Assembly: GCA_965204285.1 (NCBI GenBank)
Contig: OZ241980.1
Span: 4,269,987-4,333,986, forward strand
Direction of reading: 5' to 3'
DNA: 64,000 nucleotides
Source: Candidatus Poribacteria bacterium
GTDB lineage: Bacteria; Poribacteria; WGA-4E; WGA-3G
Each line of letters begins with the position of its first letter. The first letter of the stretch is position 1. Positions 35,601 through 55,559 of this stretch are shown here, piece after piece. The notes beneath the pieces are model-generated. The model ran no database searches and had not been told where the DNA came from. It saw nothing but the letters and a program-made list of their open reading frames with translations. The position numbers and the translations under genes are program-made.

Positions 35601-35909
35601 GCAGAGAGGTTACCGAAAGAGACGGCACTATTAATGAACTATCCAAATCCGTTCAACCCAGAGACTTGGATACCTTATCAGCTGGCAAAACCAACAGAGG
35701 TAGTTATTTCTATCCATTCTGTAGATGGGAAGCTTGTTCGGAGGCTGGTGTTAGGGCATTTACCTGTGGGTATATATCGTAGCAAATCTCGCGCTGCACA
35801 TTGGGATGGTCGGAATGAGTCGGGTGAACTTGTGGCAAGTGGTGTCTATTTTTATACACTCACTACTGATAATTTTACGGCTACTCGCAAAATGCTCATT
35901 CAGAAGTAA
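32673..35909 (+). CDS. internalin-like LRR surface protein, in-frame fusion of two paralogous LRR units, with C-terminal dockerin-like pair plus T9SS-type CTD
   Basis: TTG start conserved with paralogs (AAGGGGA RBS). About 33 22-residue LRRs (L..LTNLT.LDL..N.ISDVSPL). A second N-cap (VHIPDRGLRTALEFAL...C...C) at about aa 320. C-terminus DVNRDGVVNITD / DVNNDGVVDIRD then NYPNPFNPETWIPYQL...GVYFYTL. Confidence 0.75.
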   Translation: MIFSTYIGSIHKKSKRLNLRLTQVGGLILFVYMFFLGHHQMATAQTVHIPDPGLRAVLELALDKEVGDDITQADMESLKTLQAVKSGIHDLTGLEFATNLEILEFGQNQISDISPLKDLIKLTKLRLGDNREISDASPLKNLTNLTFLDIDSNQVSDVSPLKNLINLTWLDLDDNGISDLSPLSTLTKLRYLDLDGNLISDLSPLSTLTNLTFLDLDENEISDFSILSTLINLTVLDLEGNKISDVSPLSTLINLTELDLHNNKISDVSPLSNLINLTVLDLRGNQISDFSPINGLIDNLVEYYNSDQTIPTHIPENVNRDGNPELVHIPDRGLRTALEFALSKTPVENITQSDMASLKVLQASKCRYLGLAEVGARAPNRWECGFTDVTSGYSIQNLTGLEFATNLRELHLGRNEISDVSPLKNLTELTYLDLGNNQQISDVSPLRNLTNLTFLNLRFNRISDISPLKNLTKLIELGLRGNELSDVTPLRPLISLKYLSVRDNRLSDVTPLRNLTQLVILNLRENNISDVTPFKGLVNLTHLYLRENQVLDVSPLRDMINMRELDLEDNQVSDVTPLRDMTELVYLDMDSNAVPDVSALKNMTKLRILDFSDNQISDISPLTDMLYLSRLDLDDNPILDVSPLENLTRLIWLDLDDNEILDVSPLKNLTRLTWLDLDDNQISDLSPLKNLMELTYLDLDGNEISDLSPLKDMTKLEVLDLDGNNISDVSPLSTLINLIELDLHDNEISDISALQNMTNLMDLDIDDNQITDVSPLKNMIKLTILDADGNLILNVSPLKDLTNLTELDLHDNEISDISALQNMTKLKVLDLRGNQISDFSPIAGLIDNLVEYYNSNQTFPAYKREDVNRDGVVNITDLVLAATNFDDPDLTVLARRNLYPDVNNDGVVDIRDLVLIAAEIGSAAAPALSKSSIETSNLTAKNLTQWIRLAKKLDMSNLQMQKGVAVLEQLLAVLSHAERLPKETALLMNYPNPFNPETWIPYQLAKPTEVVISIHSVDGKLVRRLVLGHLPVGIYRSKSRAAHWDGRNESGELVASGVYFYTLTTDNFTATRKMLIQK

Positions 35910-36029: not shown

Positions 36030-38225
36030 TTGATACTTTTTACATCATATAAAGGATCGCTATCCGAATATTTCTCAAACCGGAATTTAGAATTTACCCG
36101 TGTTGTTATTCTTGTATTTATAGCGTGTGCCTTTTTTGGGGCACCACACCGTATAGCAACCGCACAGACTGTCCACATTCCGGATTCTGATCTTCGCACC
36201 GCTGTTGAGTTAACATTGAACAAAGAGATAGGTGAAGACATCACTCCAGCAGATATGGCAAGTTTGCAAATACTTCAAGCAAGTAACTGTCACTTTTTGA
36301 GGCGATCAGGAGTGCCACGATGGATACCAATACGCCAGAGATGTCCACACAATTTATTAGAATCCCACGTTCAAGACCTAACAGCACTTGAATTCGCAAT
36401 TAATCTGGAAGAGTTACATCTTGCTCATAACCTGATATCTGATGTATCCCCACTCAAAAATATGAAAAAACTGATTGTGTTAGATCTGCACAACAACTTT
36501 ATGATATCTGATGTATCACCACTTAGTGCTTTGACAAATCTTACGCACTTATCTCTTTGGGGCAACCAAGTTTCCGATCCCTCTCCCCTCAGTGTACTAA
36601 AAAACCTCACATATTTATCTCTTGAAAACAATGGAGTATCTGATGTATTCCCACTCAAAGGTTTGACCAACTTGGAGGGACTGGATGTTGAAACCAACCG
36701 AATCTCCGATTTATCCCCGCTCAGAGGTTTGACAAAACTTACGTTCCTTGATTTTGACCAGAATAGAGTATCTGATGTATCACCACTCAAAAACATGACA
36801 GAACTAACACAACTGGATGCATCCGACAACCAGATTTCAGATATATCTCCGCTCAGTGCTATGACAGAAATAACACAGCTGGATATTGACGATAATCAGA
36901 TAATAGATATATCCGCACTCAAAAATATGACAAAAATGTTATGGCTGGATATTGACGGTAACCAGATAATAGGTTTGTCCGCACTCAAAAATATGACAAA
37001 TCTGACAAGGGCGAACATTGATGACAATAACATATCAGATGTGTCCCCACTGGAAAATTTAACAAAATTAGAAAAACTTGATCTTGACCATAACAACATA
37101 TCAGATGTATCACCACTGAAAAATATGGTAAAACTGACATGGTTAGATATTGACGATAACCAGATAATAGATATATCCGCACTCAAAAATATGATAAGGT
37201 TGCAATTGTTGGATTTAGGTGACAATGAAATATTAGATATATCCGCACTCAAAAATATGACGAAATTGACAGAATTAGATCTTAACGACAACGAAATATT
37301 AGATATATCCGCACTCAAAAATATGACAAAACTCAAAGTGCTTGATCTTAACGGCAATCGGATATCAAACATATCCGCACTGAAAAATATGACAAAATTG
37401 ACAGAATTAGATCTTCACGACAACCAGATATCAGATATATCCGCACTCAAAGATTTGACAAATCTCAAAGTGTTGGATCTTCGTGGCAACCATATATCTG
37501 ATTTTTCACCAATCGCAGGATTGATAGATAATTTAGTGGAATATTACAACAGCGACCAAACACTCCCGACCCACAAATTAGAAGATGTGAACCGAGATGG
37601 TATCGTAAATATTACTGATCTTGTTTTAGCCGCATTAAATCTTGACAATCCTGATTTAGCGTCACTCGCTCGGAGAAATCTCTATCCAGATGTTAACAAT
37701 GACGGTGTTGTGGATATCAGGGACTTGGTACTAATCGCTGCAGAGATAGGTTCACCCGCTGCTCCAGCGCTCAGCAAAAACGCGGTTGAAACATCCAACC
37801 TCACTGCTAAAAATCTCACACGGTGGATACGGCTTGCCAAACAGCTTGATACACAAGAGCCGCAAATACAAAGAGGGATTTCTGTTTTAGAACAGTTCTT
37901 AGCAGTTCTGATTGACGTAGAAGTGCCACCAAAAGAGACTGCCCTACTAACCAACTATCCAAATCCGTTCAACCCTGAAACTTGGATACCTTATCAGTTG
38001 GCAAAACCAGCGAAGGTAAATATCTCTATTCATTCTGCGGATGGTAAACTTATTCGTCTGATACCAATGGGGCACTTGCCTGCAGGCACATATCACAGCA
38101 AATCTCGCGCAGCTTATTGGGATGGTCGGAATGACTCAGGTGAGACTGTAGCAAGTGGCGTCTATTTTTATACACTCACTGCAGATGATTTCACCGCTAC
38201 TCAAAAAATGCTAATCCGAAAGTGA
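36030..38225 (+). CDS. internalin-like LRR surface protein with C-terminal dockerin-like pair plus T9SS-type CTD (paralog 2)
   Basis: TTG start and AAAGGAG RBS. Signal peptide and Cys-loop N-cap (NCHFL...RQRCPHN). About 17 LRRs. Same C-terminal module. Confidence 0.75.
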   Translation: MILFTSYKGSLSEYFSNRNLEFTRVVILVFIACAFFGAPHRIATAQTVHIPDSDLRTAVELTLNKEIGEDITPADMASLQILQASNCHFLRRSGVPRWIPIRQRCPHNLLESHVQDLTALEFAINLEELHLAHNLISDVSPLKNMKKLIVLDLHNNFMISDVSPLSALTNLTHLSLWGNQVSDPSPLSVLKNLTYLSLENNGVSDVFPLKGLTNLEGLDVETNRISDLSPLRGLTKLTFLDFDQNRVSDVSPLKNMTELTQLDASDNQISDISPLSAMTEITQLDIDDNQIIDISALKNMTKMLWLDIDGNQIIGLSALKNMTNLTRANIDDNNISDVSPLENLTKLEKLDLDHNNISDVSPLKNMVKLTWLDIDDNQIIDISALKNMIRLQLLDLGDNEILDISALKNMTKLTELDLNDNEILDISALKNMTKLKVLDLNGNRISNISALKNMTKLTELDLHDNQISDISALKDLTNLKVLDLRGNHISDFSPIAGLIDNLVEYYNSDQTLPTHKLEDVNRDGIVNITDLVLAALNLDNPDLASLARRNLYPDVNNDGVVDIRDLVLIAAEIGSPAAPALSKNAVETSNLTAKNLTRWIRLAKQLDTQEPQIQRGISVLEQFLAVLIDVEVPPKETALLTNYPNPFNPETWIPYQLAKPAKVNISIHSADGKLIRLIPMGHLPAGTYHSKSRAAYWDGRNDSGETVASGVYFYTLTADDFTATQKMLIRK

Positions 38226-38342: not shown

Positions 38343-40700
38343 TTGAAACTTTTTACATCATATAAGGTATTACTGTCCAAACCTTTCTCAGACCGGAGTG
38401 TAGAATTTACCCGGATTGTTATTCTTGTTTTTATCGCGGGCATGCTTTTTGGGGCATCACACCCGATAGCAATGGCACAGCCTGTCCACATTCCGGACCC
38501 CGGCCTCCGTGCTGCTCTTGAATTAGCACTGGATAAAGAGATAGGTGAGGACATTACCGAGGCTGAGATGGCGAGTTTGAAAATACTTCAAGCAAGTAAC
38601 TGCCGTTTTTTATGGTTGTCGGAAATAGGACACTGGGCTGTAAATAGGCGATGGATATGTCAGTCTGCTGACGATACGTTGGGAACCGGTGATAATATGT
38701 TTGAATATGATATTCGAGATTTGACGGGCCTTGAGTTTGCTACTAATCTGACAGATCTGCATCTTGGCCGGAATCGGATATCTGATATTTCTCCACTCAA
38801 AGACTTGACAAACTTAACATATCTTGATCTCGGACTCAACCGGAGGATATCGGATGTGTCTCCACTTGAAAACTTAACAAACTTGACACACTTGAATCTA
38901 ACAGGTAATCGGATATCGGATGTGTCTCCACTTAAAAACTTAACAAAACTGGTAGACTTGGATCTCCAATACAATCGGATATCGGATGTGTCTCCACTTG
39001 AAAACTTAACAAACTTGATTTTTTTAGATATCCGCAGCAACCAGATATCAGATATATCTCCACTCAAAAATTTGACAAACTTGACACACCTGAGACTTAA
39101 AGAGAACCAAATATTTGATGTTACCCCGCTCAAAAACTTAACAGACTTATCACACCTTAGTCTTCAATCCAATCAGATATCGGATGTGTCCCAACTCACT
39201 TCCTTGGCAAATTTAGTTTATCTGGATCTTGACAGCAACCAGATATCAGATGTATCTGTGCTCAAGAACTTTAAAGAACTGAGACATCTGGATATTTCTG
39301 ACAACCAAGTATCGGATGTATCTCCCCTCCAAGATCTGATATTCCTGGGACGTCTGGATATTGACGATAACCCTCTATCGGATGTGTTCCCGCTCAGAAA
39401 ATTGACTAACCTTGTATTTTTAGATATTGATGATTGTCAGATATTAGATATTTCTCCTCTCAGAGACTTGATCAGGTTGACAGTTTTAGATCTTGATGAT
39501 AATAAGATATCCGATGTATTTCCTCTCAAGGACTTGACAAGATTGGTAGTTTTGGATCTTGATGGCAATGAATTATCGGATATATCTCCACTTGAAAACT
39601 TGACAAGACTGACAGAACTGGATCTTGATGGTAATCAGATATCGGATGTGTCCCCGCTCAAAGTTTTGAGAAATTTAAAACTACTTGATCTTCACAACAA
39701 CCTGATATCTGATTTGGCGCCACTCAGTGACTTAACAAGACTGGCTTTTCTGGATCTTGACGACAATCAGATATTAGATGTGTCTCCACTCAGAAATTTG
39801 ACAAACTTGACGGAACTGGATCTTGATGGTAATCAGGTATCGGATGTAACACCTCTTAAAGATTTAACAAATCTGACAGTGTTAGACCTCCGCGACAATC
39901 AGATATTAGATGTGTCTCCACTCAACGGTTTGGTAAACCTGAAAATCTTAGATATTAGTGACAACCATATATCTGATTTTTCTCCAATTGCCGGATTGAT
40001 AGATAATTTGGAGGAATATTATAACAGCAACCAAACATTTCCTGCCTACAAGCGGGAAGATGTGAACCGCGATGGTGTCGTGAATATTACTGATCTTGTC
40101 TTAGCAGCAACCAACTTTGACGATCCTGACTTGGGCGCACTTGCCCGGATAAACCTCTATCCAGATGTTAACAACGACGGTGTTGTGGATATTAGAGACC
40201 TGGTCCTTATTGCTGCAGAGATAGGTTCCGCTGCTGCACCTACACTTAGCAAAAATTCCATTATAGCAATAGAGCTCACTGCGAAGGACCTCACGCCGTG
40301 GATTGCTCTCGCAAAACAACTTGACACACAAGATATACAGATACAAAAAGGTATTGCTGTATTGGAGCAGCTTTTAGCTGCCCTTACTCTTTCCGAGATT
40401 TTACCGCGAGAGACAGCCCTGTTAGCGAACTATCCAAATCCGTTCAATCCTGAAACGTGGATACCGTATCAGCTGTCAAAACCGGCAGCGGTTACGATAT
40501 CTATTCATTCTGCGGATGGTAAACTTATTCGCTCATTATATATTGGGCGTTTGTCTGCTGGTATCTATCGTAGCAAATCCCGTGCGGCGTATTGGGATGG
40601 TCGAAATGAGTCGGGTGAACTTGTAGCAAGCGGTGTTTATTTTTATACACTCACTGCGGGTGATTATACTGCAACGAAGAAAATGCTTATCAAAAAGTAA
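38343..40700 (+). CDS. internalin-like LRR surface protein with C-terminal dockerin-like pair plus T9SS-type CTD (paralog 3)
   Basis: TTG start and AGGAG RBS. N-cap NCRFLWLSEIGHWAVNRRWIC. About 22 LRRs. Same C-terminal module. Confidence 0.75.
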   Translation: MKLFTSYKVLLSKPFSDRSVEFTRIVILVFIAGMLFGASHPIAMAQPVHIPDPGLRAALELALDKEIGEDITEAEMASLKILQASNCRFLWLSEIGHWAVNRRWICQSADDTLGTGDNMFEYDIRDLTGLEFATNLTDLHLGRNRISDISPLKDLTNLTYLDLGLNRRISDVSPLENLTNLTHLNLTGNRISDVSPLKNLTKLVDLDLQYNRISDVSPLENLTNLIFLDIRSNQISDISPLKNLTNLTHLRLKENQIFDVTPLKNLTDLSHLSLQSNQISDVSQLTSLANLVYLDLDSNQISDVSVLKNFKELRHLDISDNQVSDVSPLQDLIFLGRLDIDDNPLSDVFPLRKLTNLVFLDIDDCQILDISPLRDLIRLTVLDLDDNKISDVFPLKDLTRLVVLDLDGNELSDISPLENLTRLTELDLDGNQISDVSPLKVLRNLKLLDLHNNLISDLAPLSDLTRLAFLDLDDNQILDVSPLRNLTNLTELDLDGNQVSDVTPLKDLTNLTVLDLRDNQILDVSPLNGLVNLKILDISDNHISDFSPIAGLIDNLEEYYNSNQTFPAYKREDVNRDGVVNITDLVLAATNFDDPDLGALARINLYPDVNNDGVVDIRDLVLIAAEIGSAAAPTLSKNSIIAIELTAKDLTPWIALAKQLDTQDIQIQKGIAVLEQLLAALTLSEILPRETALLANYPNPFNPETWIPYQLSKPAAVTISIHSADGKLIRSLYIGRLSAGIYRSKSRAAYWDGRNESGELVASGVYFYTLTAGDYTATKKMLIKK

Positions 40701-40777
40701 TACCAAATCAGGTAATGCCAAACGGTCTTAATTCTGATAAAAATACCTTTTTAAGTGGCTACACTACAAGGAGCAAA

Positions 40778-43408
40778 ATGAGAACATCAATAGTATTATT
40801 TTTCATTTTCTGTCTGCTGTCAACAGCATTAGGTGACATCCAGTTTGAAGAAGTTTCACATCAAGCAGGCATCACCCGCATCGGTGAAAGTTGGGGAAAT
40901 GCATGGGGTGATTTTGACGGTGATGGTTATCTTGACTTATGGGCAACAAACCATAAGCATAAACCGAGCCTTTATCGGAACAACGGTGACGGAACTTTTA
41001 CAGATATTATTGACGAAGTCTGGAACGCGAATCCGCATGCCGATACACATGGTGTCGCGTGGGCAGATTTTGATAACGATGGCGACCAGGATCTAATTGT
41101 GTTATGTGGAAGTGGTGGTGGGAGAACAAGTGTAACTAATCCAACTCAGGATAACCATTTTTACATTAACGAAAATGGTATGCTTATAGAACGGGCGTCT
41201 GAGTTGGGTGTTGTATTTCCACTTTTACGAGGTAGAACACCTCTCTGGTTAGATTGGAATACCGATGGGGAGTTGGATCTTGTTCTAACTGGAATTCTCC
41301 GAATGGATGGGAACGGTGAGTTAGTGGCAGCCTCTTTATTTGAACAGACAACGGGTGGTTTTCAAGATGTAAGCTCTGCTTCAGGTTTTTTGATAGAAAA
41401 AAGTACTTCGTTAGCGCAACTGGTGGATATAACACACGATGGAGTCATGGATTTGGTTGTTCAAGGGAACCCTCATCCGCTGCAAGTATATGACATGTCT
41501 TCAATGTTTTTTAATCCTGTAACAACGCCTAACTTCCCGAAACGTTTTAATGTAAAAGATGCCGTTTATGCCGATTTCAACGGGGATTTGATGTTGGATA
41601 GTTTTCTTGGAAGAGGTGTATCCAGTTCCTACATTGACACACAAAATCCAAATAGAATGGTAGCCGGTATATCTGCCAACATGGAAGAAAAAGGTGTTAG
41701 TTTCAAAGCCGAAGGTGATGTGCATTTTGAAATCTATTCAGCTTGGGCAACTTGGCGTTCTCATCTATTAATTGGTGCCGAAGGACATCAATTAACACAA
41801 TTTGATGGTGAATTTATTGGAACAGACCCGATTCGTAATGTAGCATCTTTCAAATTTGTTCTATCTCCCGATGACCCTAAAGCAGTAGGGCTCAAAAATA
41901 GACCGGAATTTGAAAATCAAAGGATTTATGTCGGTTATGATCATGTGACGGAAAGATGGACCGTCCTGTTTCATACAATGCCTCGTAATAAGATCACTGG
42001 GAATATAACCATGAGTGCGATTATCCATTCATCTCAATCAATATCAGATGTAGAACCCATTAACTTTTCCACATCAGAATTACGGAACAGACCGCAATCA
42101 ATTCTTTTTATTAACGAAGGGAATAAACTTGCATCTACTAACGATGCTTTTGCAAGTGATGTTGTCTCAATTGGTTCAGGTGACTTTGATAACGATATGG
42201 ATGTGGACCTTTACCTCGTACGTTCAAGCAGTGTCGGGAATCTCCCAAATTACCTTTATGAAAACATGGGAGCTGGATCTTTTATTGAACACGATGCAGG
42301 AGGTGGCGCTGTTGCAAGCGAACAAGGAAGAGGACAAAGCGTCGCGGTGGCTGACTATGACAAAGATGGATACCTTGACCTTTTTGTCACGAACGGCAAA
42401 GGAGTGTTCCCCTTTAACAATGGACCTGACCAACTTTTCCGAAATACAGACAGTGGCAACAATTGGCTGCAAATTGATTTGGAGGGAACTGTTTCTAATC
42501 GTGATGGTATCGGCGCGCGACTTTTCGCAACAACACCTGATGGTAAAACTCAATTACGAGAAAACAGCGGAGGTATTCATTGGTGTCAACAGGACCAGAA
42601 ACGTATCCATTTTGGGCTTGCACAGAATGAGAAAGTCAGCGAATTGGTTATCCATTGGCCAAGCGGAATATTCCAAAAGTTGACCAACATAGAAGTTAAT
42701 CAAGTATTACACGTCGTTGAGGATGGGATTCAAACACAGCTTCCAGGGGATGTCAATCGAGATGGGCAGGTAGATATATTGGATCTCCTTGTTGTTGTAT
42801 CGCACTTTGGAGAAGATCCACCTTCAAACGCGCGAAGTGATACCAACAAAGATGGACAAGTAAATCTTGAAGATGTTGTTTGGATTATCAAGATTATTGA
42901 AGAGAACCAGAATAGTAATGCAGCGCCTGTTCAGAGACCTTCAACCCGATCTATTCCGAATACTATGTCAAACGGTATTGCCACGTTGTCGGACACGGAT
43001 ATAGCACTCCTTCATTCCTTTTATCAAAAAATTGAAGAAATGCAAGGGAACTCTACACAAATAGAATTGGTCAAACGATTTTTAAGACATCTACTAATGC
43101 CCGCGGATAATCCGTTGAAAACGAAACTCTATGCGAATTACCCGAATCCTTTTAATCCGGAAACATGGATTCCATATCAACTTGCGGAGGATGTTGAAAT
43201 TACTATACGTATCTATAACACAGCAGGTAAGATTGTAAGGACTCTTTTTTCTGGACATCAAAAATCAGGGTATTACATCACCCGTAGCAAAGCCGCATAT
43301 TGGGATGGTCAGAACGAATTCGGAGAAGCAGTTGCCAGTGGTGTCTATATCTATGAACTGGTAACCCCAAAAACTAAACACACAAAACGACTCGTAGTAA
43401 TAAAGTAA
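40778..43408 (+). CDS. FG-GAP repeat / UnbV_ASPIC (CRTAC1-like) protein with C-terminal dockerin-like pair plus T9SS-type CTD
   Basis: FG-GAP/VCBS motifs (DFDGDGYLDLW, DFDNDGDQDLIV, DYDKDGYLDLFV). ASPIC domain (RDGIGARLFATTPDGKTQLRENSGGIHWCQQDQKRIHFGL...IHWPSG). Then DVNRDGQVDILD / DTNKDGQVNLED and NYPNPFNPETWIPYQLA...GVYIYEL. Confidence 0.75.
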   Translation: MRTSIVLFFIFCLLSTALGDIQFEEVSHQAGITRIGESWGNAWGDFDGDGYLDLWATNHKHKPSLYRNNGDGTFTDIIDEVWNANPHADTHGVAWADFDNDGDQDLIVLCGSGGGRTSVTNPTQDNHFYINENGMLIERASELGVVFPLLRGRTPLWLDWNTDGELDLVLTGILRMDGNGELVAASLFEQTTGGFQDVSSASGFLIEKSTSLAQLVDITHDGVMDLVVQGNPHPLQVYDMSSMFFNPVTTPNFPKRFNVKDAVYADFNGDLMLDSFLGRGVSSSYIDTQNPNRMVAGISANMEEKGVSFKAEGDVHFEIYSAWATWRSHLLIGAEGHQLTQFDGEFIGTDPIRNVASFKFVLSPDDPKAVGLKNRPEFENQRIYVGYDHVTERWTVLFHTMPRNKITGNITMSAIIHSSQSISDVEPINFSTSELRNRPQSILFINEGNKLASTNDAFASDVVSIGSGDFDNDMDVDLYLVRSSSVGNLPNYLYENMGAGSFIEHDAGGGAVASEQGRGQSVAVADYDKDGYLDLFVTNGKGVFPFNNGPDQLFRNTDSGNNWLQIDLEGTVSNRDGIGARLFATTPDGKTQLRENSGGIHWCQQDQKRIHFGLAQNEKVSELVIHWPSGIFQKLTNIEVNQVLHVVEDGIQTQLPGDVNRDGQVDILDLLVVVSHFGEDPPSNARSDTNKDGQVNLEDVVWIIKIIEENQNSNAAPVQRPSTRSIPNTMSNGIATLSDTDIALLHSFYQKIEEMQGNSTQIELVKRFLRHLLMPADNPLKTKLYANYPNPFNPETWIPYQLAEDVEITIRIYNTAGKIVRTLFSGHQKSGYYITRSKAAYWDGQNEFGEAVASGVYIYELVTPKTKHTKRLVVIK

Positions 43409-43420
43409 AAGGCAAAAAAT

Positions 43421-44416
43421 ATGAAAAAAACCTCATTGGTTACTGGTGGAGCAGGTTTTATGGGTGCCCACCTCGTTAATGAGTTACTTCGCGATGAAAA
43501 TCATCAAGTGGTTGCACTTGATGACCTGAGCGGTGGATTTCACGAAAATGTCAATCCAAATGCAACATTTGTTGAAGGTAGTATACTTGATGTTCAACTA
43601 ATAAACCAACTCTGTGAGCAGTATAAATTTAACTATATCTATCATCTTGCGGCGTATGCAGCAGAGGGATTGAGTCACTTTATCAAACGATTTAACTATC
43701 AAAATAACCTTATCGGTAGTGTCAACCTGATAAATGCCGCTGTGAACTATAATGTTAAACGGTTTGTGTTCACCTCTTCCATCGCTGTTTATGGTGAAAA
43801 CCAACTTCCGATGCACGAAGGACTCATACCGATGCCTGAAGATTCCTACGGTATCGCCAAATATGCTGTAGAACAAGAATTGGTCGTTTCTAAACACCTC
43901 TTTGACTTGGATTACACCATTTTCCGACCACATAATGTTTATGGTGAACTTCAGAATATTAGTGATAAATATCGCAATGTTATCGGCATCTTCATGAATA
44001 AAATTATGCAAAATGAACCCTTGGTTATCTTTGGAGATGGAGAGCAGACACGCGCTTTTACACATATCGCAGATGTCGCACCGCATATCGCACACTGCGT
44101 AGATATACCGGAAGCCTCATGTGAAGTTTTCAATGTCGGTTCGGATAAACATGTTTCTGTCAATGAATTAGCACATCTCGTCATGACAGCCATGGAAAAG
44201 GAGGTACCTGTAAAACATCTTCGAGAAAGGGAAGAGGTGAAGCATGCCTATTGCACGCATGAAAAATTCCACAAGGTTTTTGGAGAAACGTCACAGGTTT
44301 CACTTCCAGAAGGTTTAGGTAGGATGACAACATGGGCAAAGTCTGTCGGACCACGGGATTCCACCTTATTTAAGGACATTGAAATTCGCAAAAACCTACC
44401 TGAAGGTTGGAAATAA
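43421..44416 (+). CDS. NAD-dependent sugar epimerase/dehydratase (extended SDR)
   Basis: VTGGAGFMGAHL (GxxGxxG). YGIAKYAVEQ (YxxxK). Confidence 0.8.
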   Translation: MKKTSLVTGGAGFMGAHLVNELLRDENHQVVALDDLSGGFHENVNPNATFVEGSILDVQLINQLCEQYKFNYIYHLAAYAAEGLSHFIKRFNYQNNLIGSVNLINAAVNYNVKRFVFTSSIAVYGENQLPMHEGLIPMPEDSYGIAKYAVEQELVVSKHLFDLDYTIFRPHNVYGELQNISDKYRNVIGIFMNKIMQNEPLVIFGDGEQTRAFTHIADVAPHIAHCVDIPEASCEVFNVGSDKHVSVNELAHLVMTAMEKEVPVKHLREREEVKHAYCTHEKFHKVFGETSQVSLPEGLGRMTTWAKSVGPRDSTLFKDIEIRKNLPEGWK

Positions 44417-44445
44417 TTTTCTCCATCTCTGGATTCCAAATTTGC

Positions 44446-45762
44446 ATGGTGAAAAAACTTCTACGGCACAATACCTTTTGGGTAATGGTGATTACCTTTG
44501 TTGGAATGGGATTAAGTCTACTCACCCGTGCCATCTTGATTCCTAAGCGGTTTGATATCGGCATAACATCAGACGCACTGATTACCGCATTAAAAGTGGT
44601 GTTATTAGTCGATACGGTGGTACGGGAAGGTGCTAAGTTTAGTCTTGTTCCGCTCTTTATCACATGCGAAAAGGAGATGACGGATACAGAATACCTGCGT
44701 TTTACAAATAGTCTACTCAACTTTTTGCTCTGTGTTGGTTTAGGTATATTTATCCTTATTGAACTTTCCGCACCTTGGATTGTGAGGGCATTATCGTCAA
44801 CCATTGATGCGCAGAAGACGACTACACTGTTGCGATTATCTGCCCCATTGATTATCTTTGGATGTGGTAGCACCGTACTGGGTGCGTTGCTGAACAGTCG
44901 GCAGCGTTTTAAGACGGTAGCTCTCCGAAACGCACTCCCTCCCGGTGTCGCCGCTGTAGTATTTTTGTTCCTGTGGCACACTGAAAACTTAGAAAATTGG
45001 ATAGCGATTGCATACACAGGGGGTTTTGTCTTATATTTTGGATGGTTGTGCATCGGGATGTATCGAACGGGACATCGGTTTCAGTTTGAAGGAATTTCCC
45101 TTGATACGCTGCGTTCTTTGAAAAACACGGTTACGCTGCCAACACTCGGTTTCACTGTTCGACAGGTTACGAATCGTTTGTTGGTTGAAGTATCCCTTGT
45201 CTCACAACTCGGAAGTGGGGCAGTTACGCTCTATGAATGCGCTTTCAGGATTTTCTCTGCATTACAGACACTTATCGGGATCAGTATTGCTACAACTGGC
45301 TTGCCGGATATGGCGACACAAGATGTGGAGGATAATCAGCTCAAATTGAGACGCACACTCAAACGGAACATAGCAACAGCATTTTGCATTGCACTTCCAG
45401 TGACATTACTACTTCTTTTGAGCCACACAAAAATTGTCTCGCTTTTGTATACTGGGAATAAATTTGATCACGCGTCAATTCAACAGATCGCGCAAGTACT
45501 CTTCTGGCTCAGCACAGGGATGGTTTTTTCGTGTTTGATACCTGTGTTAAACGCTGGACTCTATGCTCAAAAAGCGTACGGATTGATTTTTAGAAACATG
45601 TTAACGATGGCAGTTTTAAACTTTGCTTTGGCTTATGGATTTGTTAAAGCATGGGGACTTCTTGGTATCGCTTTAGCCGTTTCAGTCACTGCAATTCTTG
45701 CTGTAGCCAATTTGACATATTTACTTCGAAAAACAGGAATAGTCTTGCTACCGAGAGATTGA
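44446..45762 (+). CDS. MOP-superfamily polysaccharide flippase (Wzx/MurJ-like)
   Basis: About 440 aa and about 12-14 TM helices, with typical Wzx/MurJ topology. Overlaps the epimerase stop. Confidence 0.5.
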   Translation: MVKKLLRHNTFWVMVITFVGMGLSLLTRAILIPKRFDIGITSDALITALKVVLLVDTVVREGAKFSLVPLFITCEKEMTDTEYLRFTNSLLNFLLCVGLGIFILIELSAPWIVRALSSTIDAQKTTTLLRLSAPLIIFGCGSTVLGALLNSRQRFKTVALRNALPPGVAAVVFLFLWHTENLENWIAIAYTGGFVLYFGWLCIGMYRTGHRFQFEGISLDTLRSLKNTVTLPTLGFTVRQVTNRLLVEVSLVSQLGSGAVTLYECAFRIFSALQTLIGISIATTGLPDMATQDVEDNQLKLRRTLKRNIATAFCIALPVTLLLLLSHTKIVSLLYTGNKFDHASIQQIAQVLFWLSTGMVFSCLIPVLNAGLYAQKAYGLIFRNMLTMAVLNFALAYGFVKAWGLLGIALAVSVTAILAVANLTYLLRKTGIVLLPRD

Positions 45763-45829: not shown

Positions 45830-46810
45830 ATGAGTACTCCTACAAAAAAAGTCAGTGATTACCGTTATCTAATTGTAGGTGGGACAACAAAGGCAGCAAC
45901 TACATCCTTGTTTGCATATCTCGCAGACCATCCCACAATTTGCGGTGCTACCTATAAGGAAACACGATTTTTCCTTGACAGTAACTATCCCTTGCCATCA
46001 AAATATCGATACACTGGAGATTTGGAGGAATACAATCTTCTGTTTTCTTCTTGTGATGATGATCAAGTTCGCCTTGATTCAACACCGGATTATCTGTATT
46101 GCCCACAAGCCCTTGAACGAATCGCTACATTTCTGCCACATGCCAAGATAATTTTTAGCCTTCGCGAACCGATTTCACGTTTAGTTTCATGGTATCGATT
46201 CGCGAAACAAATTGGGAAATTGCCGCAAAACCTAAATTTTGATGCTTATGTAGAAAAGCTTTTTGACATAGAAGAACATTTACAAGTGGACAGTACTTCC
46301 ACAGATGAAAAACCTATCACTGAACAGTACATGCAGGCACTTAGGCAAGGGTGTTATGCCTTATATCTGAAAGAGTATTTTAAACAATTTAAGTCAAATC
46401 GTCTCTACATCCTCTTTTATGAAGACCTTGCCGCATACCCTTCAAAAGTGCTTACAGAGTTATGCAACTTTGCTGGCATAGATGCTAATTTTTATGAGGG
46501 CTACGCATTTAAAGTCACGAATCGTACCGAAACGATGAAAAATTCGGAGTTTCATAAAAAGTATAGAGACTTCCGATTTCGCTTACGTCAATGGACACAT
46601 AACAAGCCTCTAATTCACAATCCTTTAAGGTTACTGAGACGAACAATTGAACCGCTTTATCTTCGATTAAACACACGTCCAACTGAAAACGTCCACATGT
46701 CAGAAGATACACAAAAGCAATTAATAAATTACTACAAAAGCGATGTCCGTGATCTTACAGAATTAATTGGAAAAATACCGCCTTGGGAACAATTTACTTC
46801 GGCCCCGTAG
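45830..46810 (+). CDS. sulfotransferase-family protein (PAPS-dependent)
   Basis: 5'-PSB-like P-loop YLIVGGTTKAATTSL. 3'-PB-like IIFSLREPISRLVS. Confidence 0.6.
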   Translation: MSTPTKKVSDYRYLIVGGTTKAATTSLFAYLADHPTICGATYKETRFFLDSNYPLPSKYRYTGDLEEYNLLFSSCDDDQVRLDSTPDYLYCPQALERIATFLPHAKIIFSLREPISRLVSWYRFAKQIGKLPQNLNFDAYVEKLFDIEEHLQVDSTSTDEKPITEQYMQALRQGCYALYLKEYFKQFKSNRLYILFYEDLAAYPSKVLTELCNFAGIDANFYEGYAFKVTNRTETMKNSEFHKKYRDFRFRLRQWTHNKPLIHNPLRLLRRTIEPLYLRLNTRPTENVHMSEDTQKQLINYYKSDVRDLTELIGKIPPWEQFTSAP

Positions 46811-46853: not shown

Positions 46854-47759
46854 TTGGTTGATAAGTTAATCCAACTCATGATTGTGGGGACGCAGAAGTC
46901 GGGAACGTCTTCGTTACTGCATTATTTAGCACAACATCCTGATATCTATACGCATCCACAACCAGAGATGACTTTTTTCCTCCAAAATCATGAATATACA
47001 CGCGGGTACGAATCGGCATTTGCTAAATATTTCTCTCAATCTCCAGAAGATAAAAAACTTATTGCCAAAAATGTAATGGTGATGCATTCTCCAGAGATAA
47101 TGCAACGAATTCATGAACATAATCCGGAAATACATCTTGTTGTGCTACTGCGGGAACCTGTGGCACGCGCATACTCCGCCTATTGGTGGGCAAGACGCAG
47201 AGGTTGGGAAAATATCAAGACATTTGAAGAAGCGCTTGCTGCTGAGGAAACACGCCTTGAGGAAGATTGGTTCAAATGGCGGCAGTGTGGGTATCTCAAT
47301 AACAGCACTTATTATCCGCACGTCAAAAGTTTAATTGCACAATTTGGAGAGAGACACGTTCACTGCCTTTTAACCGGTGAATTACAAATAGATCCTCTGA
47401 CTGTTTGTCAACGCCTCTATAAACTTCTCAATATCGGCACCGATTTTGAACCTATCGTGGAAGAAAGACATAACCAAGCAGCAATGCCTCGATCTGAAAA
47501 GTTTAATTTCCTCTTTACACAGTTTCTATCATCTCATAATCCATTGAAACGTGCGATTCGTAAACTTGTGCCAGATGCTGCCGCTTACAAATTAAGAAAA
47601 AAAATCCTAAACTGGAACGACAAACCTTTCACGCCGCCGCCAATGAACCCGAAGACACGCGAAGAATTAAAAAATTATTTTACACCTTTTAATCAAGAAT
47701 TAGCAGAATTATTAGGACAAGATTTATCACATTGGAATGCCCATAAAGCAGTTACGTAA
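46854..47759 (+). CDS. sulfotransferase-family protein (PAPS-dependent)
   Basis: MIVGTQKSGTSSL (5'-PSB, PKxGTT-like). VVLLREPVARAYSAYWW (3'-PB RxxxRxxS-like). Confidence 0.65.
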   Translation: MVDKLIQLMIVGTQKSGTSSLLHYLAQHPDIYTHPQPEMTFFLQNHEYTRGYESAFAKYFSQSPEDKKLIAKNVMVMHSPEIMQRIHEHNPEIHLVVLLREPVARAYSAYWWARRRGWENIKTFEEALAAEETRLEEDWFKWRQCGYLNNSTYYPHVKSLIAQFGERHVHCLLTGELQIDPLTVCQRLYKLLNIGTDFEPIVEERHNQAAMPRSEKFNFLFTQFLSSHNPLKRAIRKLVPDAAAYKLRKKILNWNDKPFTPPPMNPKTREELKNYFTPFNQELAELLGQDLSHWNAHKAVT

Positions 47760-47803: not shown

Positions 47804-49153
47804 ATGTTCATAATCTATTTTCTCACAGGTTACGTCGCTTTTGAAGAGTTTGTACTGAAATTTCTGCCTGTCAGTGATGCTGTATATTCTTACCTAAGAT
47901 TCTTAGGAGAGCTACTTATCTATGCGGCATTTGCAAAACTTGTTATTCACAAACTCTACAAAGGAATACCTTTCGTCAAAACAGCGATAGATTTGCCAAT
48001 TATCGGTTTTTACGTTGTGGTATTTCTTTCAATGGTAATAAACCGTTCACCATTGATCGGAAGCATTTATAATATCCGTCCATTTGCGCGGTATATAGTC
48101 CTCTTTTATCTTATTGCTAATTCACCTTTGTCTGAAAAACGCATTGCAACTTTTCTACGGGTAATTTTATGCGTTGGTGTAGCACAACTCTTTGCAGGTA
48201 TGATTCAATGGGCTGGTGGTCGCGGAGCTTTTGACTTCTTCCTTCCGCGTGCGTCAACGCTTGAAGTCGGTGGGTTCACAAAAGAATACAGATTGCTTGA
48301 ACTCGGTCGAGAAATTGGAAGTATCTATGGCACTTTGGGGGATACGGTTATTTACGGGGTGTTCATGATTCTTATCCTCGTCATTTTTCTTTCACGCATA
48401 AGGCGGTTGGAGTATCTGAATTTACTTGGAATAGTCGTTCTGTTGATGTTCATTGCCCGTTCTTACTCACGCGCTGCTACTTTTTCCGCGATTCTTGCAT
48501 GTGCAGCATGGTTCTACTTTCAATACGGTTGGAAGAAAACACTCCGTTTATCATTAGCAATAATACTCGTCTTCGGAATTCTTTTGGCGATAGTGAATCC
48601 ATTTAGCTTGGAATACGTTAATCCGAGAAAAGCGAAAGTTGGTTTGGTTGGGAATGTAACAGGTGTATTTTCTGGTTCTTATGTTCGTATAGCACAAAAA
48701 CAGAGACTTGGTGCCTTAATTGGGAATGTGCCGACAGTACTCGCAAACAAACCGATTTTAGGATATGGTGCAGATCAGAACAGCACGATTGAAAAACTGA
48801 ATATGAGCAAACGTTCATTTCTTTTAAAAGTACTCAGTAAAAAAGGATTTAAAGATGTGTATTGGGTTGCTATTCTCTGTTTTTACGGCCTGTTAGGGTT
48901 GGGTTTATTCAGTTTAATATTTCTCCGTCTTTTTATCGCGGCATTAAGTCTTTACAAGCGCGCAGTTAGTAGATACGCTAAGGAGATCGCGATGATAATG
49001 CTTTGTCTTGTTACAGTAACTGTCTTTTTGCTCTTTTTTAATCGAACACTTGAATTTCGTGGCTATGGGTTCTACTTTTGGCTGTGCGCGGGACTGATGT
49101 TTGCCAGTGATGCTTCACTTAAAACCTATAAACCGCTAAGGATTACTTTATGA
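47804..49153 (+). CDS. Wzy/O-antigen-ligase-like polytopic membrane protein
   Basis: About 10-12 TM helices with a large periplasmic loop. Locus context. Family call tentative. Confidence 0.4.
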   Translation: MFIIYFLTGYVAFEEFVLKFLPVSDAVYSYLRFLGELLIYAAFAKLVIHKLYKGIPFVKTAIDLPIIGFYVVVFLSMVINRSPLIGSIYNIRPFARYIVLFYLIANSPLSEKRIATFLRVILCVGVAQLFAGMIQWAGGRGAFDFFLPRASTLEVGGFTKEYRLLELGREIGSIYGTLGDTVIYGVFMILILVIFLSRIRRLEYLNLLGIVVLLMFIARSYSRAATFSAILACAAWFYFQYGWKKTLRLSLAIILVFGILLAIVNPFSLEYVNPRKAKVGLVGNVTGVFSGSYVRIAQKQRLGALIGNVPTVLANKPILGYGADQNSTIEKLNMSKRSFLLKVLSKKGFKDVYWVAILCFYGLLGLGLFSLIFLRLFIAALSLYKRAVSRYAKEIAMIMLCLVTVTVFLLFFNRTLEFRGYGFYFWLCAGLMFASDASLKTYKPLRITL

Positions 49154-55548: not shown

Positions 55549-55559
55549 GGGAACGGTTT

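What the first reader, a model, noticed from the sequence alone, without database searches (positions are those of the whole stretch)
40715..43421. T9SS-cargo genes abut the glycan locus, suggesting a sulfated glycan as anchor or partner of the displayed proteins
The LRR/FG-GAP cargo genes run directly, on the same strand and with less than 15 nt spacing, into the epimerase/flippase/sulfotransferase operon. The two sulfatase cargo genes are embedded inside it.

In Porphyromonas, CTD proteins are conjugated by PorU to an anionic LPS (A-LPS) made by a dedicated Wzy-dependent pathway. By analogy, this locus could make an anionic (sulfated) glycan to which the dockerin/CTD proteins are attached or bound.

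This is inference from gene order only.
Basis: inference. Interest (0 to 1): 0.55.

Follow-up and report, generated by a model that had tools for sequence, protein, structure and literature searches.

The report
Sulfated-capsule locus hosting secreted-protein genes
A sponge-symbiont (Poribacteria) gene cluster for a heavily sulfated surface polysaccharide is conserved across the phylum. It has two variable slots filled with genes for secreted proteins, so the gene linkage is real, but a Porphyromonas-style covalent glycan anchor is not supported.

Summary
ORF 40715-43408 encodes a CRTAC1-like FG-GAP propeller with a dockerin and a type-A CTD. It ends 12 nt before an epimerase gene that opens a Wzx/Wzy-type cluster: flippase, four sulfotransferases, a Wzy-like polymerase, a GH-A hydrolase, Wzi, two GT4 glycosyltransferases and a phosphoglycosyl transferase. 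Two sulfatase-dockerin-CTD genes lie inside it.

The genome is Candidatus Poribacteria, not Bacteroidota. In 80 poribacterial species representatives the core cluster is collinear. Cargo genes sit in two slots:
- Slot A (GT4a|epimerase) is occupied in 64 of 71 species.
- Slot B (ST4|Wzi) is occupied in 63 of 71 species.
- Both slots are empty in only 1 of 67.

Slot content varies: FG-GAP, LRR, zero to at least three sulfatases, and decayed remnants.

The shared dockerin-linker-CTD cassette is generic. It matches 5,760 representatives of 50%-identity protein clusters, including cohesin-bearing poribacterial proteins. The window has no WaaL, Wzz, PorU or PorZ gene. The Wzy-like protein has no invariant histidine. 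Wzi points to a capsule.

Best reading: this is a conserved sulfated capsule/EPS locus. It carries co-expressed accessory surface proteins that bind or desulfate that glycan, or similar host glycans. A covalent A-LPS-like anchor is unlikely.

The parts
29322..30239 (+). NosD/CASH-like right-handed beta-helix lipoprotein. It is the first conserved gene of the cluster and possibly a polymer-level lyase or epimerase.
   Evidence: Pfam NosD 28.8 bits. Lipobox ...WICGC. It lies upstream of GT4a in the 8 loci whose flank reaches it: L005-L007 and L064, L072, L074, L076, L078.
30246..31448 (+). GT4 glycosyltransferase (GT4a). It forms the left border of variable slot A.
   Evidence: Glycos_transf_1 102 bits. 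Median identity 82% across species.
31836..32486 (+). Lamin-tail-domain lipoprotein that travels with the LRR genes.
   Evidence: LTD 55 bits. LTD-LRR pairs occur in L010, L040, L049 and L073.
32673..35909 (+). LRR protein 1 with dockerin-linker-CTD cassette (slot A, accessory).
   Evidence: LRR_4 399 bits, Dockerin_1, TIGR04183 35.1 bits. Cassette alignment A2.
36030..38225 (+). LRR protein 2 with cassette; tandem paralogue of LRR protein 1.
   Evidence: CTD-coding DNA is 79-80% identical among the LRR genes.
38343..40700 (+). LRR protein 3 with cassette; tandem paralogue.
40715..43408 (+). The ORF of the finding: a CRTAC1-family FG-GAP/ASPIC-UnbV beta-propeller with dockerin-linker-CTD cassette. 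The probable true start is 40778. It is the commonest occupant of slot A.
   Evidence: PDB sequence hit to CRTAC1 9etn, 1e-22. Foldseek top hit 9etn (low-confidence model). It is adjacent to the epimerase gene in 42 of 64 occupied slots.
43421..44416 (+). NAD-dependent sugar-nucleotide epimerase/dehydratase (SDR).
   Evidence: Epimerase 168 bits. Median identity 85%.
44407..45762 (+). MurJ-like MOP-family flippase, in the Wzx role.
   Evidence: MurJ 166.6 bits. Below the MurJ equivalog cut-off.
45830..46810 (+). Sulfotransferase 1, related to carbohydrate (heparan-sulfate-type) sulfotransferases.
   Evidence: Sulfotransfer_1. PDB hits 3rnl, NDST1 and 3-OST.
46854..47759 (+). Sulfotransferase 2.
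   Evidence: Sulfotransfer_1 47.4 bits.
47804..49153 (+). Wzy_C-like polytopic membrane protein, assigned as the repeat-unit polymerase.
   Evidence: Wzy_C 25.4 bits, below cut-off. 76-97% identical across species, with no invariant His. No PDB sequence hit.
49150..50772 (+). Clan GH-A-like lipoprotein glycoside hydrolase, specific to Poribacteria. Its likely role is PslG-like trimming of the polymer.
   Evidence: Invariant NEY and TEWN motifs. Weak GH51/GH79 matches. 116 hits in genome contigs: every one of the 80 loci kept is titled Poribacteria or 'uncultured bacterium' except one Latescibacterota-labelled bin; the other 36 hits are not listed.
50769..51824 (+). Sulfotransferase 3 (Sulfotransfer_3 type).
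   Evidence: 104 bits. PDB hits to polyketide-synthase sulfotransferase and TPST.
51851..52852 (+). Sulfotransferase 4.
   Evidence: Sulfotransfer_3 87 bits.
52883..53452 (+). Small lipoprotein of unknown function (U189), variably present. It lies at the left border of slot B.
   Evidence: No family hit. Found in 27 loci.
53467..55548 (+). Formylglycine-type S1 sulfatase 1 with a Tat signal and the dockerin-linker-CTD cassette (slot B).
   Evidence: Sulfatase 157 bits. TRRDFL and CSPSR motifs. PDB 6hhm 2e-90 and human iduronate-2-sulfatase 2e-61.
55491..57596 (+). Sulfatase 2, a tandem paralogue. The probable start is 55560.
   Evidence: Sulfatase 161 bits. CNASR motif. About 80% DNA identity to sulfatase 1.
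57610..59262 (+). Wzi-family outer-membrane capsule-retention lectin. It forms the right border of slot B.
   Evidence: Caps_assemb_Wzi 95 bits, cut-off 30.
59417..60538 (+). GT4 glycosyltransferase (GT4b, with DUF1972).
   Evidence: Median identity 87%.
60570..61229 (+). Small polyprenyl-phosphate phosphoglycosyl transferase (WbaP/WcaJ catalytic domain), the initiating enzyme.
   Evidence: Bac_transf 211 bits. TIGR03025 260 bits.
61252..61632 (+). DUF983 small membrane protein, the conserved last gene of the cluster.
   Evidence: Present at the cluster end in 25 loci.

Best explanation
This is a phylum-conserved, roughly 32-kb, single-strand gene cluster of sponge-associated Candidatus Poribacteria. 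It makes a heavily sulfated, cell-associated polysaccharide by the Wzx/Wzy route.

Inferred pathway:
1. A small phosphoglycosyl transferase and two GT4 enzymes build a short repeat unit on undecaprenyl phosphate.
2. Four cytoplasmic PAPS-type sulfotransferases decorate it.
3. A MurJ-like flippase moves it across the inner membrane.
4. The Wzy-like protein polymerises it.
5. Periplasmic lipoproteins (a GH-A hydrolase and a beta-helix protein) trim or modify it.
6. Wzi holds it on the outer membrane.

Gene content and synteny are shown. The chemistry is inferred.

Two fixed intergenic slots in the cluster hold a variable set of genes for exported proteins. All of them end in the same dockerin / disordered linker / three-helix / type-A CTD cassette, which Poribacteria use as a generic export-and-display module. 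I infer that the slot genes are accessory 'matrix' components, co-expressed with the glycan:
- a CRTAC1-like propeller and LRR proteins that bind the glycan or host matrix;
- Tat-exported exo-sulfatases of the iduronate-2-sulfatase type that edit sulfation outside the cell, on the bacterium's own polymer or on look-alike sulfated host glycans.

The dockerins most likely engage cohesin-bearing cassette proteins encoded elsewhere in the genome. The glycan is therefore a working partner or substrate of these proteins, not their covalent anchor.
For: - Domain content of all 22 genes.
- The source is Poribacteria.
- The core is collinear in 80 species representatives. Biosynthetic enzymes are 80-87% identical (Wzy-like 80, epimerase 85, GT4b 87, PGT 83.5). 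FG-GAP is 61%, LRR 50-58% and the sulfatases 63-65%.
- Slot A is occupied in 64/71 species and slot B in 63/71; both are empty in 1/67.
- The occupants are always cassette genes but of different kinds. Sulfatase copy number is 0, 1, 2 or 3 in 13, 15, 13 and 11 closed slots. States are interleaved on a core-gene tree.
- Decayed remnants are present.
- The cassette is conserved in all six window proteins aligned. It folds with pLDDT 82.6. Its CTD matches the CTDs of PorU and PorZ best.
- The cassette profile matches 5,760 representatives of 50%-identity clusters at E<=1e-30, always at the C-terminus.
- Passengers include cohesin domains. Two of these cohesin-bearing proteins are named Candidatus Poribacteria, and others sit on contigs whose lengths match the L065 and L080 genomes.
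- The sulfatases have a Tat motif and a CxPxR/CxAxR motif. They match 6hhm and human iduronate-2-sulfatase.
- Wzi scores 95 bits.
- The GH-A protein has invariant NEY/TEWN motifs and a lipobox.
- A known analogue exists: FG-GAP matrix proteins RbmC/Bap1 are encoded with the Vibrio vps clusters (PMC4551309).
Against: - There is no chemistry, expression or localisation data.
- Neighbouring, clearly unrelated genes (Hen1/Pnkp) are also syntenic in the four flanks where this could be seen. Conserved order alone is therefore weak evidence of shared function.
- The tight 12-nt junction is present in only 19 of 47 species; 19 have gaps of 101-300 nt.
- 13 of 52 closed slot-B regions have no sulfatase, and L072 has no cargo gene at all. 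The cargo is therefore dispensable for making the glycan.
- No Wza/Wzc export genes are in the window.
- The Wzy assignment rests on a sub-threshold Pfam match.
- The targets of the FG-GAP, LRR and sulfatase proteins are untested. They could be purely host molecules.
Confidence: 0.55

Rival explanations
1. The sulfated glycan is the lipid-linked anchor, an A-LPS analogue. A PorU-like sortase attaches it to the new C-terminus of CTD proteins after the CTD is removed.
For: - The CTDs are genuine type-A-like sorting domains: TIGR04183 at 34.7 and 35.1 bits, and Foldseek top hits to the PorU and PorZ CTDs.
- The pathway is Wzx/Wzy-type with a WbaP-like initiating enzyme, as for A-LPS (PMC5445135).
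- The core is unusually conserved for a surface-glycan locus, with 80-87% identity over 80 species. That would fit a housekeeping anchor.
- How CTD proteins are handled in Poribacteria is an open question (PMC3909097).
Against: - No WaaL, Wzz, PorU or PorZ gene is in the window.
- The only Wzy_C-like protein lacks an invariant His.
- Wzi indicates a capsule held by a lectin rather than a lipid A-linked glycan.
- T9SS structural genes were reported missing from Poribacteria.
- In Porphyromonas, cargo and A-LPS genes are not linked (my own knowledge). Adjacency is therefore not a signature of that system.
- The cassette is on thousands of protein families encoded elsewhere.
- L072 keeps the core without any cargo gene.
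Confidence: 0.1
2. There is no functional link to the bacterium's own glycan. The two slots are recombination or duplication hot spots, or simply well-expressed positions. Cassette genes aimed at the host (sponge matrix glycans, host receptors) accumulate there and hitch-hike on the cluster's transcription.
For: - Slot content is highly variable, with gains, losses, tandem duplicates and pseudogene remnants.
- Every occupant shares about 650 nt of cassette-coding DNA, which could mediate recombination.
- Cargo-free and sulfatase-free clusters exist.
- Unrelated flanking genes are syntenic too.
- Poribacteria carry very many cassette proteins with eukaryote-like domains.
Against: - The same two positions are filled in about 90% of species, whereas other intergenic positions are filled only once (L055).
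- The occupants are not a random sample of cassette families. WD40 passengers are common among cassette proteins, but none was seen in the slots. The slots hold FG-GAP, LRR and S1 sulfatases.
- Sulfatase genes next to four sulfotransferase genes are a functionally coherent pairing.
- The FG-GAP orthologue group was found only in slot A in all four contexts looked up.
Confidence: 0.25
3. Glycoprotein model. The Wzy_C-like protein is a PglL-type O-oligosaccharyltransferase. It transfers the sulfated unit en bloc onto Ser/Thr in the disordered Ala/Pro/Ser-rich linker of the cassette proteins in the periplasm, before they are exported.
For: - PF04932 also covers WaaL- and PglL-type enzymes (my own knowledge).
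- The cassette has a disordered A/P/S-rich linker directly after the dockerin (pLDDT below 50 at residues 64-82).
- No Wza/Wzc polymer-export genes are in the window.
Against: - No invariant His occurs in 23 orthologues. The catalytic His is a hallmark of WaaL/PglL enzymes (my own knowledge).
- Wzi, a lectin for high-molecular-weight capsule, is conserved in the cluster.
- No second membrane protein is available to act as the polymerase.
Confidence: 0.05

Closest known systems
Vibrio cholerae biofilm-matrix cluster (vps-I / rbm / vps-II)
   Same: Genes for secreted matrix proteins lie with the genes that make the exopolysaccharide. The matrix proteins include FG-GAP propeller proteins (RbmC; Bap1 is its paralogue). 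They work together with the polysaccharide outside the cell (PMC4551309).
   Different: - In Vibrio export is by the type II system and there is no sorting cassette.
- VPS is not sulfated.
- That cluster contains no sulfatases.
- Here the protein genes occupy two variable slots and all share a dockerin-CTD module.
Synechan (xss) sulfated-EPS cluster of Synechocystis PCC 6803
   Same: It is a Wzx/Wzy-type EPS cluster with sulfotransferase genes inside it. Its outer-membrane export gene lies elsewhere in the genome (PMC8205485).
   Different: - xss has two sulfotransferases and eight glycosyltransferases. This cluster has four sulfotransferases and only three transferases, which implies a much higher sulfate density.
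- xss has no embedded secreted sulfatases, no Wzi and no cargo genes.
- It comes from a different phylum. That paper states that such clusters were not known outside cyanobacteria.
Porphyromonas gingivalis T9SS with A-LPS anchoring (PorU/PorZ/PorV)
   Same: The proteins carry type-A-like C-terminal sorting domains. A Wzx/Wzy-type anionic glycan pathway with a WbaP-like initiating enzyme is present (PMC5445135; PMC8545088).
   Different: - No PorU, PorZ, WaaL or Wzz was found here, and the T9SS machinery is reported absent from the phylum.
- The anionic groups would be sulfate esters, not phosphorylated branched mannan.
- Wzi is present.
- In Porphyromonas the cargo genes are not linked to the glycan genes (my own knowledge).
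Cellulosome-type cohesin-dockerin display, as proposed for Cloacimonadota
   Same: Type I dockerins with two calcium-binding repeats sit on secreted enzymes. Cohesin-bearing partners exist in the same genomes, and a CTD gives surface attachment (PMC8542988).
   Different: - Here the dockerin and the CTD are on the same protein as one fixed cassette.
- Cohesins occur on cassette proteins themselves rather than on one large scaffoldin.
- The passengers are mostly binding modules and sulfatases rather than glycoside hydrolases.
E. coli group 1 (K30-type) capsule loci
   Same: The pathway is Wzx/Wzy-dependent, with Wzi as the surface-retention lectin.
   Different: - No wza-wzb-wzc genes accompany wzi.
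- The locus is conserved across a phylum instead of being serotype-variable.
- It contains sulfotransferases and secreted sulfatases.

Membership tests
T9SS type-A CTD cargo protein | C-terminal sorting domain matching TIGR04183 / PF18962 above the curated cut-off | tested here: met
   TIGR04183 scores 34.7 bits (FG-GAP) and 35.1 bits (LRR1) against a cut-off of 23. Sulfatase 1 scores only 18.8, and PF18962 scores 20-24 against a cut-off of 27. The six cassettes nevertheless align with 62% mean column identity.
T9SS type-A CTD cargo protein | Beta-sandwich fold of known T9SS CTDs, placed at the extreme C-terminus | tested here: met
   The AF2 cassette model has pLDDT 82.6. Foldseek top hits are PorU 6za2 and PorZ 5m11, with FlgD and the RemA CTD lower. 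The domain ends at the stop codon in all window copies.
T9SS type-A CTD cargo protein | [quoted passage not shown] | tested here: inconclusive
   By eye, the FG-GAP and LRR proteins have Sec-like signals, but both sulfatases have a Tat motif (TRRDFL). No signal-peptide predictor was available.
T9SS type-A CTD cargo protein | T9SS machinery (SprA/Sov, PorV, PorU, GldKLMN) encoded in the same genome | not testable with these tools
   None is in the 64-kb window. The whole genome could not be reached and no seed sequence was available. Kamke et al. 2014 found none in poribacterial single-cell genomes (PMC3909097).
A-LPS-type anchor glycan pathway | Wzx/Wzy-dependent synthesis initiated by a WbaP-type transferase | tested here: met
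   Bac_transf 211 bits, MurJ-like flippase 166.6 bits, Wzy_C-like protein.
A-LPS-type anchor glycan pathway | WaaL ligase that joins the glycan to lipid A-core | tested here: not met
   The only Wzy_C-domain protein (47804-49153) has no invariant His among 23 orthologues and no NCBIfam or PDB sequence match. No other candidate is in the window. A WaaL elsewhere in the genome cannot be excluded.
A-LPS-type anchor glycan pathway | Wzz chain-length regulator and PorU/PorZ attachment proteins | tested here: not met
   None is in the window. The PorU and PorZ models match only through the shared CTD, at 21-36 bits against cut-offs of 260-420. The rest of the genome was not tested.
Wzx/Wzy-dependent capsule/EPS cluster (group-1-like) | Initiating transferase, glycosyltransferases, flippase, polymerase and Wzi | tested here: met
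   Wzi scores 95 bits against a cut-off of 30. The polymerase match is weak (25.4 bits, cut-off 31.7).
Wzx/Wzy-dependent capsule/EPS cluster (group-1-like) | Wza (outer-membrane export channel) and Wzc (co-polymerase) export pair | tested here: not met
   None is in the window. These genes may lie elsewhere, as the outer-membrane export gene does for synechan.
Sulfated-EPS biosynthetic cluster | PAPS-type sulfotransferase genes inside the polysaccharide cluster | tested here: met
   There are four genes: Sulfotransfer_1 at 52.9 and 47.4 bits, Sulfotransfer_3 at 104 and 87 bits. Each is found in 74-78 of the 80 loci.
Sulfated-EPS biosynthetic cluster | A sulfated polymer actually produced | not testable with these tools
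   This needs chemistry on sponge-derived cells or heterologous expression.
Formylglycine-dependent S1 sulfatase | Sulfatase domain with the C/S-x-P/A-x-R maturation motif | tested here: met
   PF00884 scores 157 and 161 bits. Motifs are CSPSR and CNASR. PDB 6hhm 2e-90 and iduronate-2-sulfatase 2e-61.
Cohesin-dockerin system | Type I dockerin with a duplicated calcium-binding segment | tested here: met
   Dockerin_1 scores 22.4-40.9 bits against a cut-off of 22.9; LRR3 at 22.4 is just below it. Two DxNxDGxxxxxD repeats are invariant.
Cohesin-dockerin system | A cohesin partner in the same organism | tested here: met
   Cohesin (PF00963) is found on cassette proteins P0256 and P0286. Homologues include two named Candidatus Poribacteria and others on contigs whose lengths match the L065 and L080 genomes. 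Binding itself is untested, and no cohesin is in the window.

The most novel reading that the evidence does not exclude
Sponge-dwelling Poribacteria coat themselves with a phylum-conserved, glycosaminoglycan-like, densely sulfated capsule that imitates the sulfated matrix of the host. This glycan, rather than a Bacteroidota-type T9SS attachment complex, is the receptor on which the huge family of dockerin-CTD proteins is assembled. Attachment could be through calcium-bridged dockerin-sulfate contacts or a new CTD-to-glycan linkage. The secreted sulfatases would tune where and how tightly the proteins bind. That would explain how a phylum reported to lack T9SS genes uses thousands of CTD proteins.
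Probability: 0.1. Interest if true: 0.85.

Novelty: new variant of a known kind. Interest (0 to 1): 0.55.

Why it matters
- Sulfated polysaccharides are typical of animals and algae. A recent paper states they are made 'exclusively by cyanobacteria' among bacteria (PMC8205485).
- A four-sulfotransferase capsule locus conserved across at least 116 poribacterial species would mean that a dominant sponge symbiont makes its own GAG-like glycan. Until now these bacteria were known mainly as sulfatase-rich degraders of host matrix. This bears on how symbionts avoid being eaten by sponge cells and on who makes 'sponge' sulfated polysaccharides.
- The two variable slots give a defined, comparable place to study how symbionts diversify their surface proteins.
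- The finding also sharpens a question open since 2014: how Poribacteria export and display CTD proteins.
- I found no paper in the searchable library that describes this locus.

Tried and rejected
- **T9SS machinery in Poribacteria.** I could not test for it. No seed sequence for PorU, PorV, SprA or GldKLMN can be obtained with these tools. Only +/-10 kb around hits can be read. Literature searches gave only the 2014 negative statement.
- **Source record.** Exact-sequence look-ups of the window's FG-GAP protein and of P0121 (100% identical GH-A protein) found no record, so the source record was not named.
- **FG-GAP as a lyase.** I looked for a polysaccharide-lyase-like fold in the FG-GAP protein. 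The AF2 model was poor (pLDDT 63.7). Foldseek gave CRTAC1 first and no lyase. I therefore dropped 'lyase' as a claim.
- **Wzy versus WaaL versus PglL.** A profile of 23 orthologues found nothing in the PDB sequences. The alignment could not be submitted for structure prediction because it holds locus-derived sequences. The decision rests on the absence of an invariant His only.
- **Promoters and terminators.** The sigma-70 promoter and terminator scan gave fewer or no more sites than shuffled sequence. The best promoter-like site (31688-31716, upstream of the LTD gene) is not evidence.
- **Literature.** No Poribacteria paper in the library links sulfotransferases, capsules or dockerins to this locus.
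- **Rejected reading, ordinary O-antigen locus.** Core enzymes are 80-87% identical across 80 species, which is unlike serotype-variable O-antigen loci.
- **Rejected reading, a general home for cargo genes.** The cassette is on thousands of families encoded elsewhere.

Full report
**1. What is in the sequence**

Between 29322 and 61632 all genes lie on the + strand, with short gaps. Pfam and NCBIfam give this order:

- a NosD-like beta-helix lipoprotein
- GT4a
- a lamin-tail-domain lipoprotein
- three LRR proteins
- the FG-GAP/ASPIC-UnbV protein of the finding (40715-43408)
- an SDR epimerase
- a MurJ-like flippase
- two Sulfotransfer_1 genes
- a Wzy_C-like membrane protein
- a 540-aa protein with weak GH51/GH79 similarity
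- two Sulfotransfer_3 genes
- a small lipoprotein
- two sulfatases
- Wzi (95 bits)
- GT4b
- a small Bac_transf phosphoglycosyl transferase (211 bits)
- DUF983

The FG-GAP stop codon is 12 nt from the epimerase ATG.

Two refinements apply. Glycan genes (the beta-helix protein and GT4a) also lie upstream of the cargo genes, so the cargo is embedded in the cluster rather than abutting it. The FG-GAP gene probably starts at 40778, where orthologues start and a signal peptide begins.

**2. The shared cassette**

The three LRR proteins, the FG-GAP protein and both sulfatases end in the same module of about 215 residues. It has four parts:

- a type I dockerin with two invariant DxNxDGxxxxxD calcium loops
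- a disordered Ala/Pro/Ser-rich linker
- a three-helix segment
- a beta-sandwich that starts with an invariant NxPNPFNPETWIPYxL motif (NYPNPFNPETWIPYQL in four copies, NFPNPFNPETWIPYDL in the two sulfatases) and ends ...GVYxxxL...K at the stop codon

TIGR04183 (type-A T9SS sorting domain) is met above cut-off for two proteins. An AlphaFold model of the cassette has pLDDT 82.6. By Foldseek it matches the CTDs of P. gingivalis PorU and PorZ best, followed by FlgD and the RemA CTD.

The sulfatases have a twin-arginine motif (TRRDFL) and CSPSR/CNASR formylglycine motifs.

**3. The organism**

Homologues of the FG-GAP protein and of the GH-A-like protein that carry a source name are all from Candidatus Poribacteria, and several come from sponge metagenomes. 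A scan of one genome per GTDB species found 116 relatives of the GH-A-like protein. Each of the 80 loci kept is titled Poribacteria or 'uncultured bacterium', except one bin labelled Latescibacterota; the other 36 hits are not listed.

Kamke et al. 2014 already noted that TIGR04183 domains occur on many poribacterial eukaryote-like proteins. [quoted passage not shown] I could not re-test this on the newer complete genomes.

**4.

I mapped all window proteins onto 80 loci (+/-10 kb around the GH-A gene) with tblastn. Wherever the locus is long enough to show it, the core is collinear: epimerase, flippase, ST1, ST2, Wzy, GH-A, ST3, ST4, then Wzi, GT4b, PGT, DUF983. The exceptions are about 16 loci with no detectable epimerase hit, L055 (an LRR gene inserted between Wzy and GH-A) and the fragmentary L088. 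Cassette genes occupy two positions.

| Slot | Position | Occupied | Immediate occupant |
|---|---|---|---|
| A | GT4a to epimerase | 64 of 71 | FG-GAP 42, LRR 18, sulfatase 1, other 3 |
| B | ST4/U189 to Wzi | 63 of 71 | 0/1/2/3 sulfatase genes in 13/15/13/11 closed slots, plus other cassette genes |

Open slots hold up to at least 4 sulfatase genes. Both slots are empty in only one of 67 evaluable species. That species, L072, has a clean cluster from Pnkp to DUF983.

Only one insertion was seen at any other position (L055). No cassette hit occurs in 55.8 kb of locus flanks outside the cluster or in the other 31.7 kb of the window.

Slot states are interleaved on a neighbour-joining tree of five core proteins, which implies many gains and losses. 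Truncated sulfatase genes and ORF-less cassette fragments remain in some slots.

The junction is tight (20 nt or less) in 19 of 47 species and 101-300 nt in another 19.

One caution is needed. The unrelated Hen1/Pnkp pair upstream is syntenic as well in the four flanks where this could be seen. Conserved order alone therefore proves little. The recurrence of one class of gene at two fixed positions, despite turnover, is the informative signal.

**5. Nature of the glycan pathway**

Core enzymes are strikingly conserved. Median identity to the window is Wzy-like 80%, epimerase 85%, GT4a 82%, GT4b 87% and PGT 83.5%. By comparison, FG-GAP is 61%, LRR 50-58% and the sulfatases 63-65%. This is unlike serotype-variable O-antigen or capsule loci and points to one conserved polymer.

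Three transferases and four sulfotransferases imply a short, densely sulfated repeat; this is inference. ST1 is related to heparan-sulfate N- and 3-O-sulfotransferases. ST3 is related to polyketide-synthase and tyrosylprotein sulfotransferases.

The GH-A-like lipoprotein keeps invariant NEY and TEWN catalytic motifs. It fills the role that PslG-type hydrolases play in other EPS operons (analogy from my own knowledge).

The Wzy_C-like protein has no invariant histidine in 23 orthologues. WaaL and PglL enzymes depend on a conserved His (my own knowledge), so a polymerase is the better assignment.

No WaaL, Wzz, Wza or Wzc gene is in the window. Wzi argues for a capsule held at the surface by a lectin.

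**6. The cargo**

- *FG-GAP protein.* It is a CRTAC1-family propeller: PDB sequence hit 9etn at 1e-22, and Foldseek top hit 9etn with a low-confidence model. There is no lyase-like match.
- *Sulfatases.* They are closest to the arylsulfatase 6hhm (2e-90) and to human iduronate-2-sulfatase (2e-61). That suggests exo-acting carbohydrate sulfatases. Substrate specificity is not tested here.

**7. How general is the cassette?**

A profile of the six window cassettes was searched against 1.84 billion representatives of 50%-identity protein clusters. It gives 5,760 hits at E<=1e-30. In nearly all of the 150 hits listed the full-length match ends at the protein's C-terminus, and protein lengths range from 183 to 2,340 residues.

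Ten sampled hits carry WD40 propellers, LRRs, a sulfatase and, in two cases, cohesin domains. A search with one cohesin-bearing hit returned about 70 more cohesin-dockerin-CTD proteins among the 120 listed. Two of these are named Candidatus Poribacteria. Others sit on contigs whose lengths match genomes that hold the glycan locus (5,130,803 bp for L065 and 4,029,097 bp for L080).

Two conclusions follow. The cassette is a generic display module of the phylum, and the genes in this locus are a small subset of its users. The dockerin also has a conventional protein partner available.

**8. Interpretation**

Shown:
- a phylum-wide sulfotransferase-rich Wzx/Wzy cluster;
- two conserved slots that are nearly always filled with cassette genes of a restricted set of kinds.

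Inferred:
- The slot genes are accessory matrix components expressed with the glycan. They are binders (CRTAC1-like propeller, LRR) and editors (secreted sulfatases) acting on the bacterium's own sulfated capsule or on similar sulfated host glycans.
- The closest worked example is the Vibrio cholerae vps/rbm region, where FG-GAP matrix proteins are encoded with the polysaccharide genes (PMC4551309).

The covalent A-LPS/PorU model (PMC5445135) fails several membership tests in the window. It also lacks the machinery, according to the only published check. It cannot be fully excluded without whole-genome scans. A neutral 'hot-spot' reading remains a serious rival, because the cargo is dispensable and turns over quickly.

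**9. Novelty**

Sulfotransferase genes inside bacterial EPS clusters were described for cyanobacterial synechan. That paper stated they were otherwise unknown (PMC8205485). I found no paper in the library linking Poribacteria to sulfotransferases, capsules or dockerins.

The locus is a new variant of known kinds: a Wzx/Wzy EPS cluster, a sulfated EPS, and matrix-protein genes embedded in an EPS locus. Its unusual features are secreted sulfatases inside a sulfation operon, a fixed dockerin-CTD cassette on every embedded protein, and conservation across a symbiont phylum.

Noticed in passing
window 53467-53620 and 55560-55700 (N-termini of the two sulfatases): Both sulfatases combine a twin-arginine (Tat) signal motif, TRRDFL, with a T9SS-type C-terminal sorting domain. 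Known T9SS cargo is described as Sec-dependent, so this pairing is unusual.
   Followed up: partly
window 25239-29264; L005/L006 1430-6881: A bacterial Hen1/Pnkp RNA-repair gene pair lies directly upstream of the glycan cluster and is syntenic with it in other Poribacteria. In L005/L006 an IS605 OrfB/TnpB-like gene is inserted between Hen1 and Pnkp.
   Followed up: no
representative and homologue proteins P0256, P0286, P0393-P0508: Poribacteria encode many proteins that carry a cohesin domain together with the same dockerin-CTD cassette, often behind WD40 or LRR arrays. This suggests a self-associating cohesin-dockerin mesh on the cell surface rather than a single scaffoldin.
   Followed up: partly
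window 31836-32486; L010, L040, L049, L073: A lamin-tail-domain lipoprotein with a Met/Asp/Thr-rich low-complexity stretch precedes LRR genes wherever they occur. In L073 the LTD-LRR pair sits in slot B instead of slot A, as if it moves as a unit.
   Followed up: partly
L075 13806-14831; L050 and L074 between ST4 and Wzi; L055 between Wzy and GH-A: Signs of turnover: a truncated sulfatase gene (341 aa, C-terminal part only), cassette-coding fragments without an ORF, and one LRR-cassette gene inserted at a non-canonical position inside the core.
   Followed up: partly
window 2183-5993: A corrinoid-dependent methyltransferase set is present: a B12-binding protein, a RACo-type reductive activator with a 2Fe-2S domain, and a homocysteine S-methyltransferase-like enzyme. 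It is unrelated to the finding.
   Followed up: no
window 10066-17613 (- strand): A run of envelope-related genes: a DUF6785/DUF6784 protein, a POTRA/Omp85-like protein, a BatA-VWA protein and a transglutaminase/DUF3108 protein. None matches a T9SS component above cut-off.
   Followed up: partly
window 32900-35300, 36300-37600, 38600-40000: The LRR genes are built from long arrays of 66-nt (22-residue) repeats, about 60-74% identical to one another at the DNA level. The three genes are tandem paralogues.
   Followed up: no
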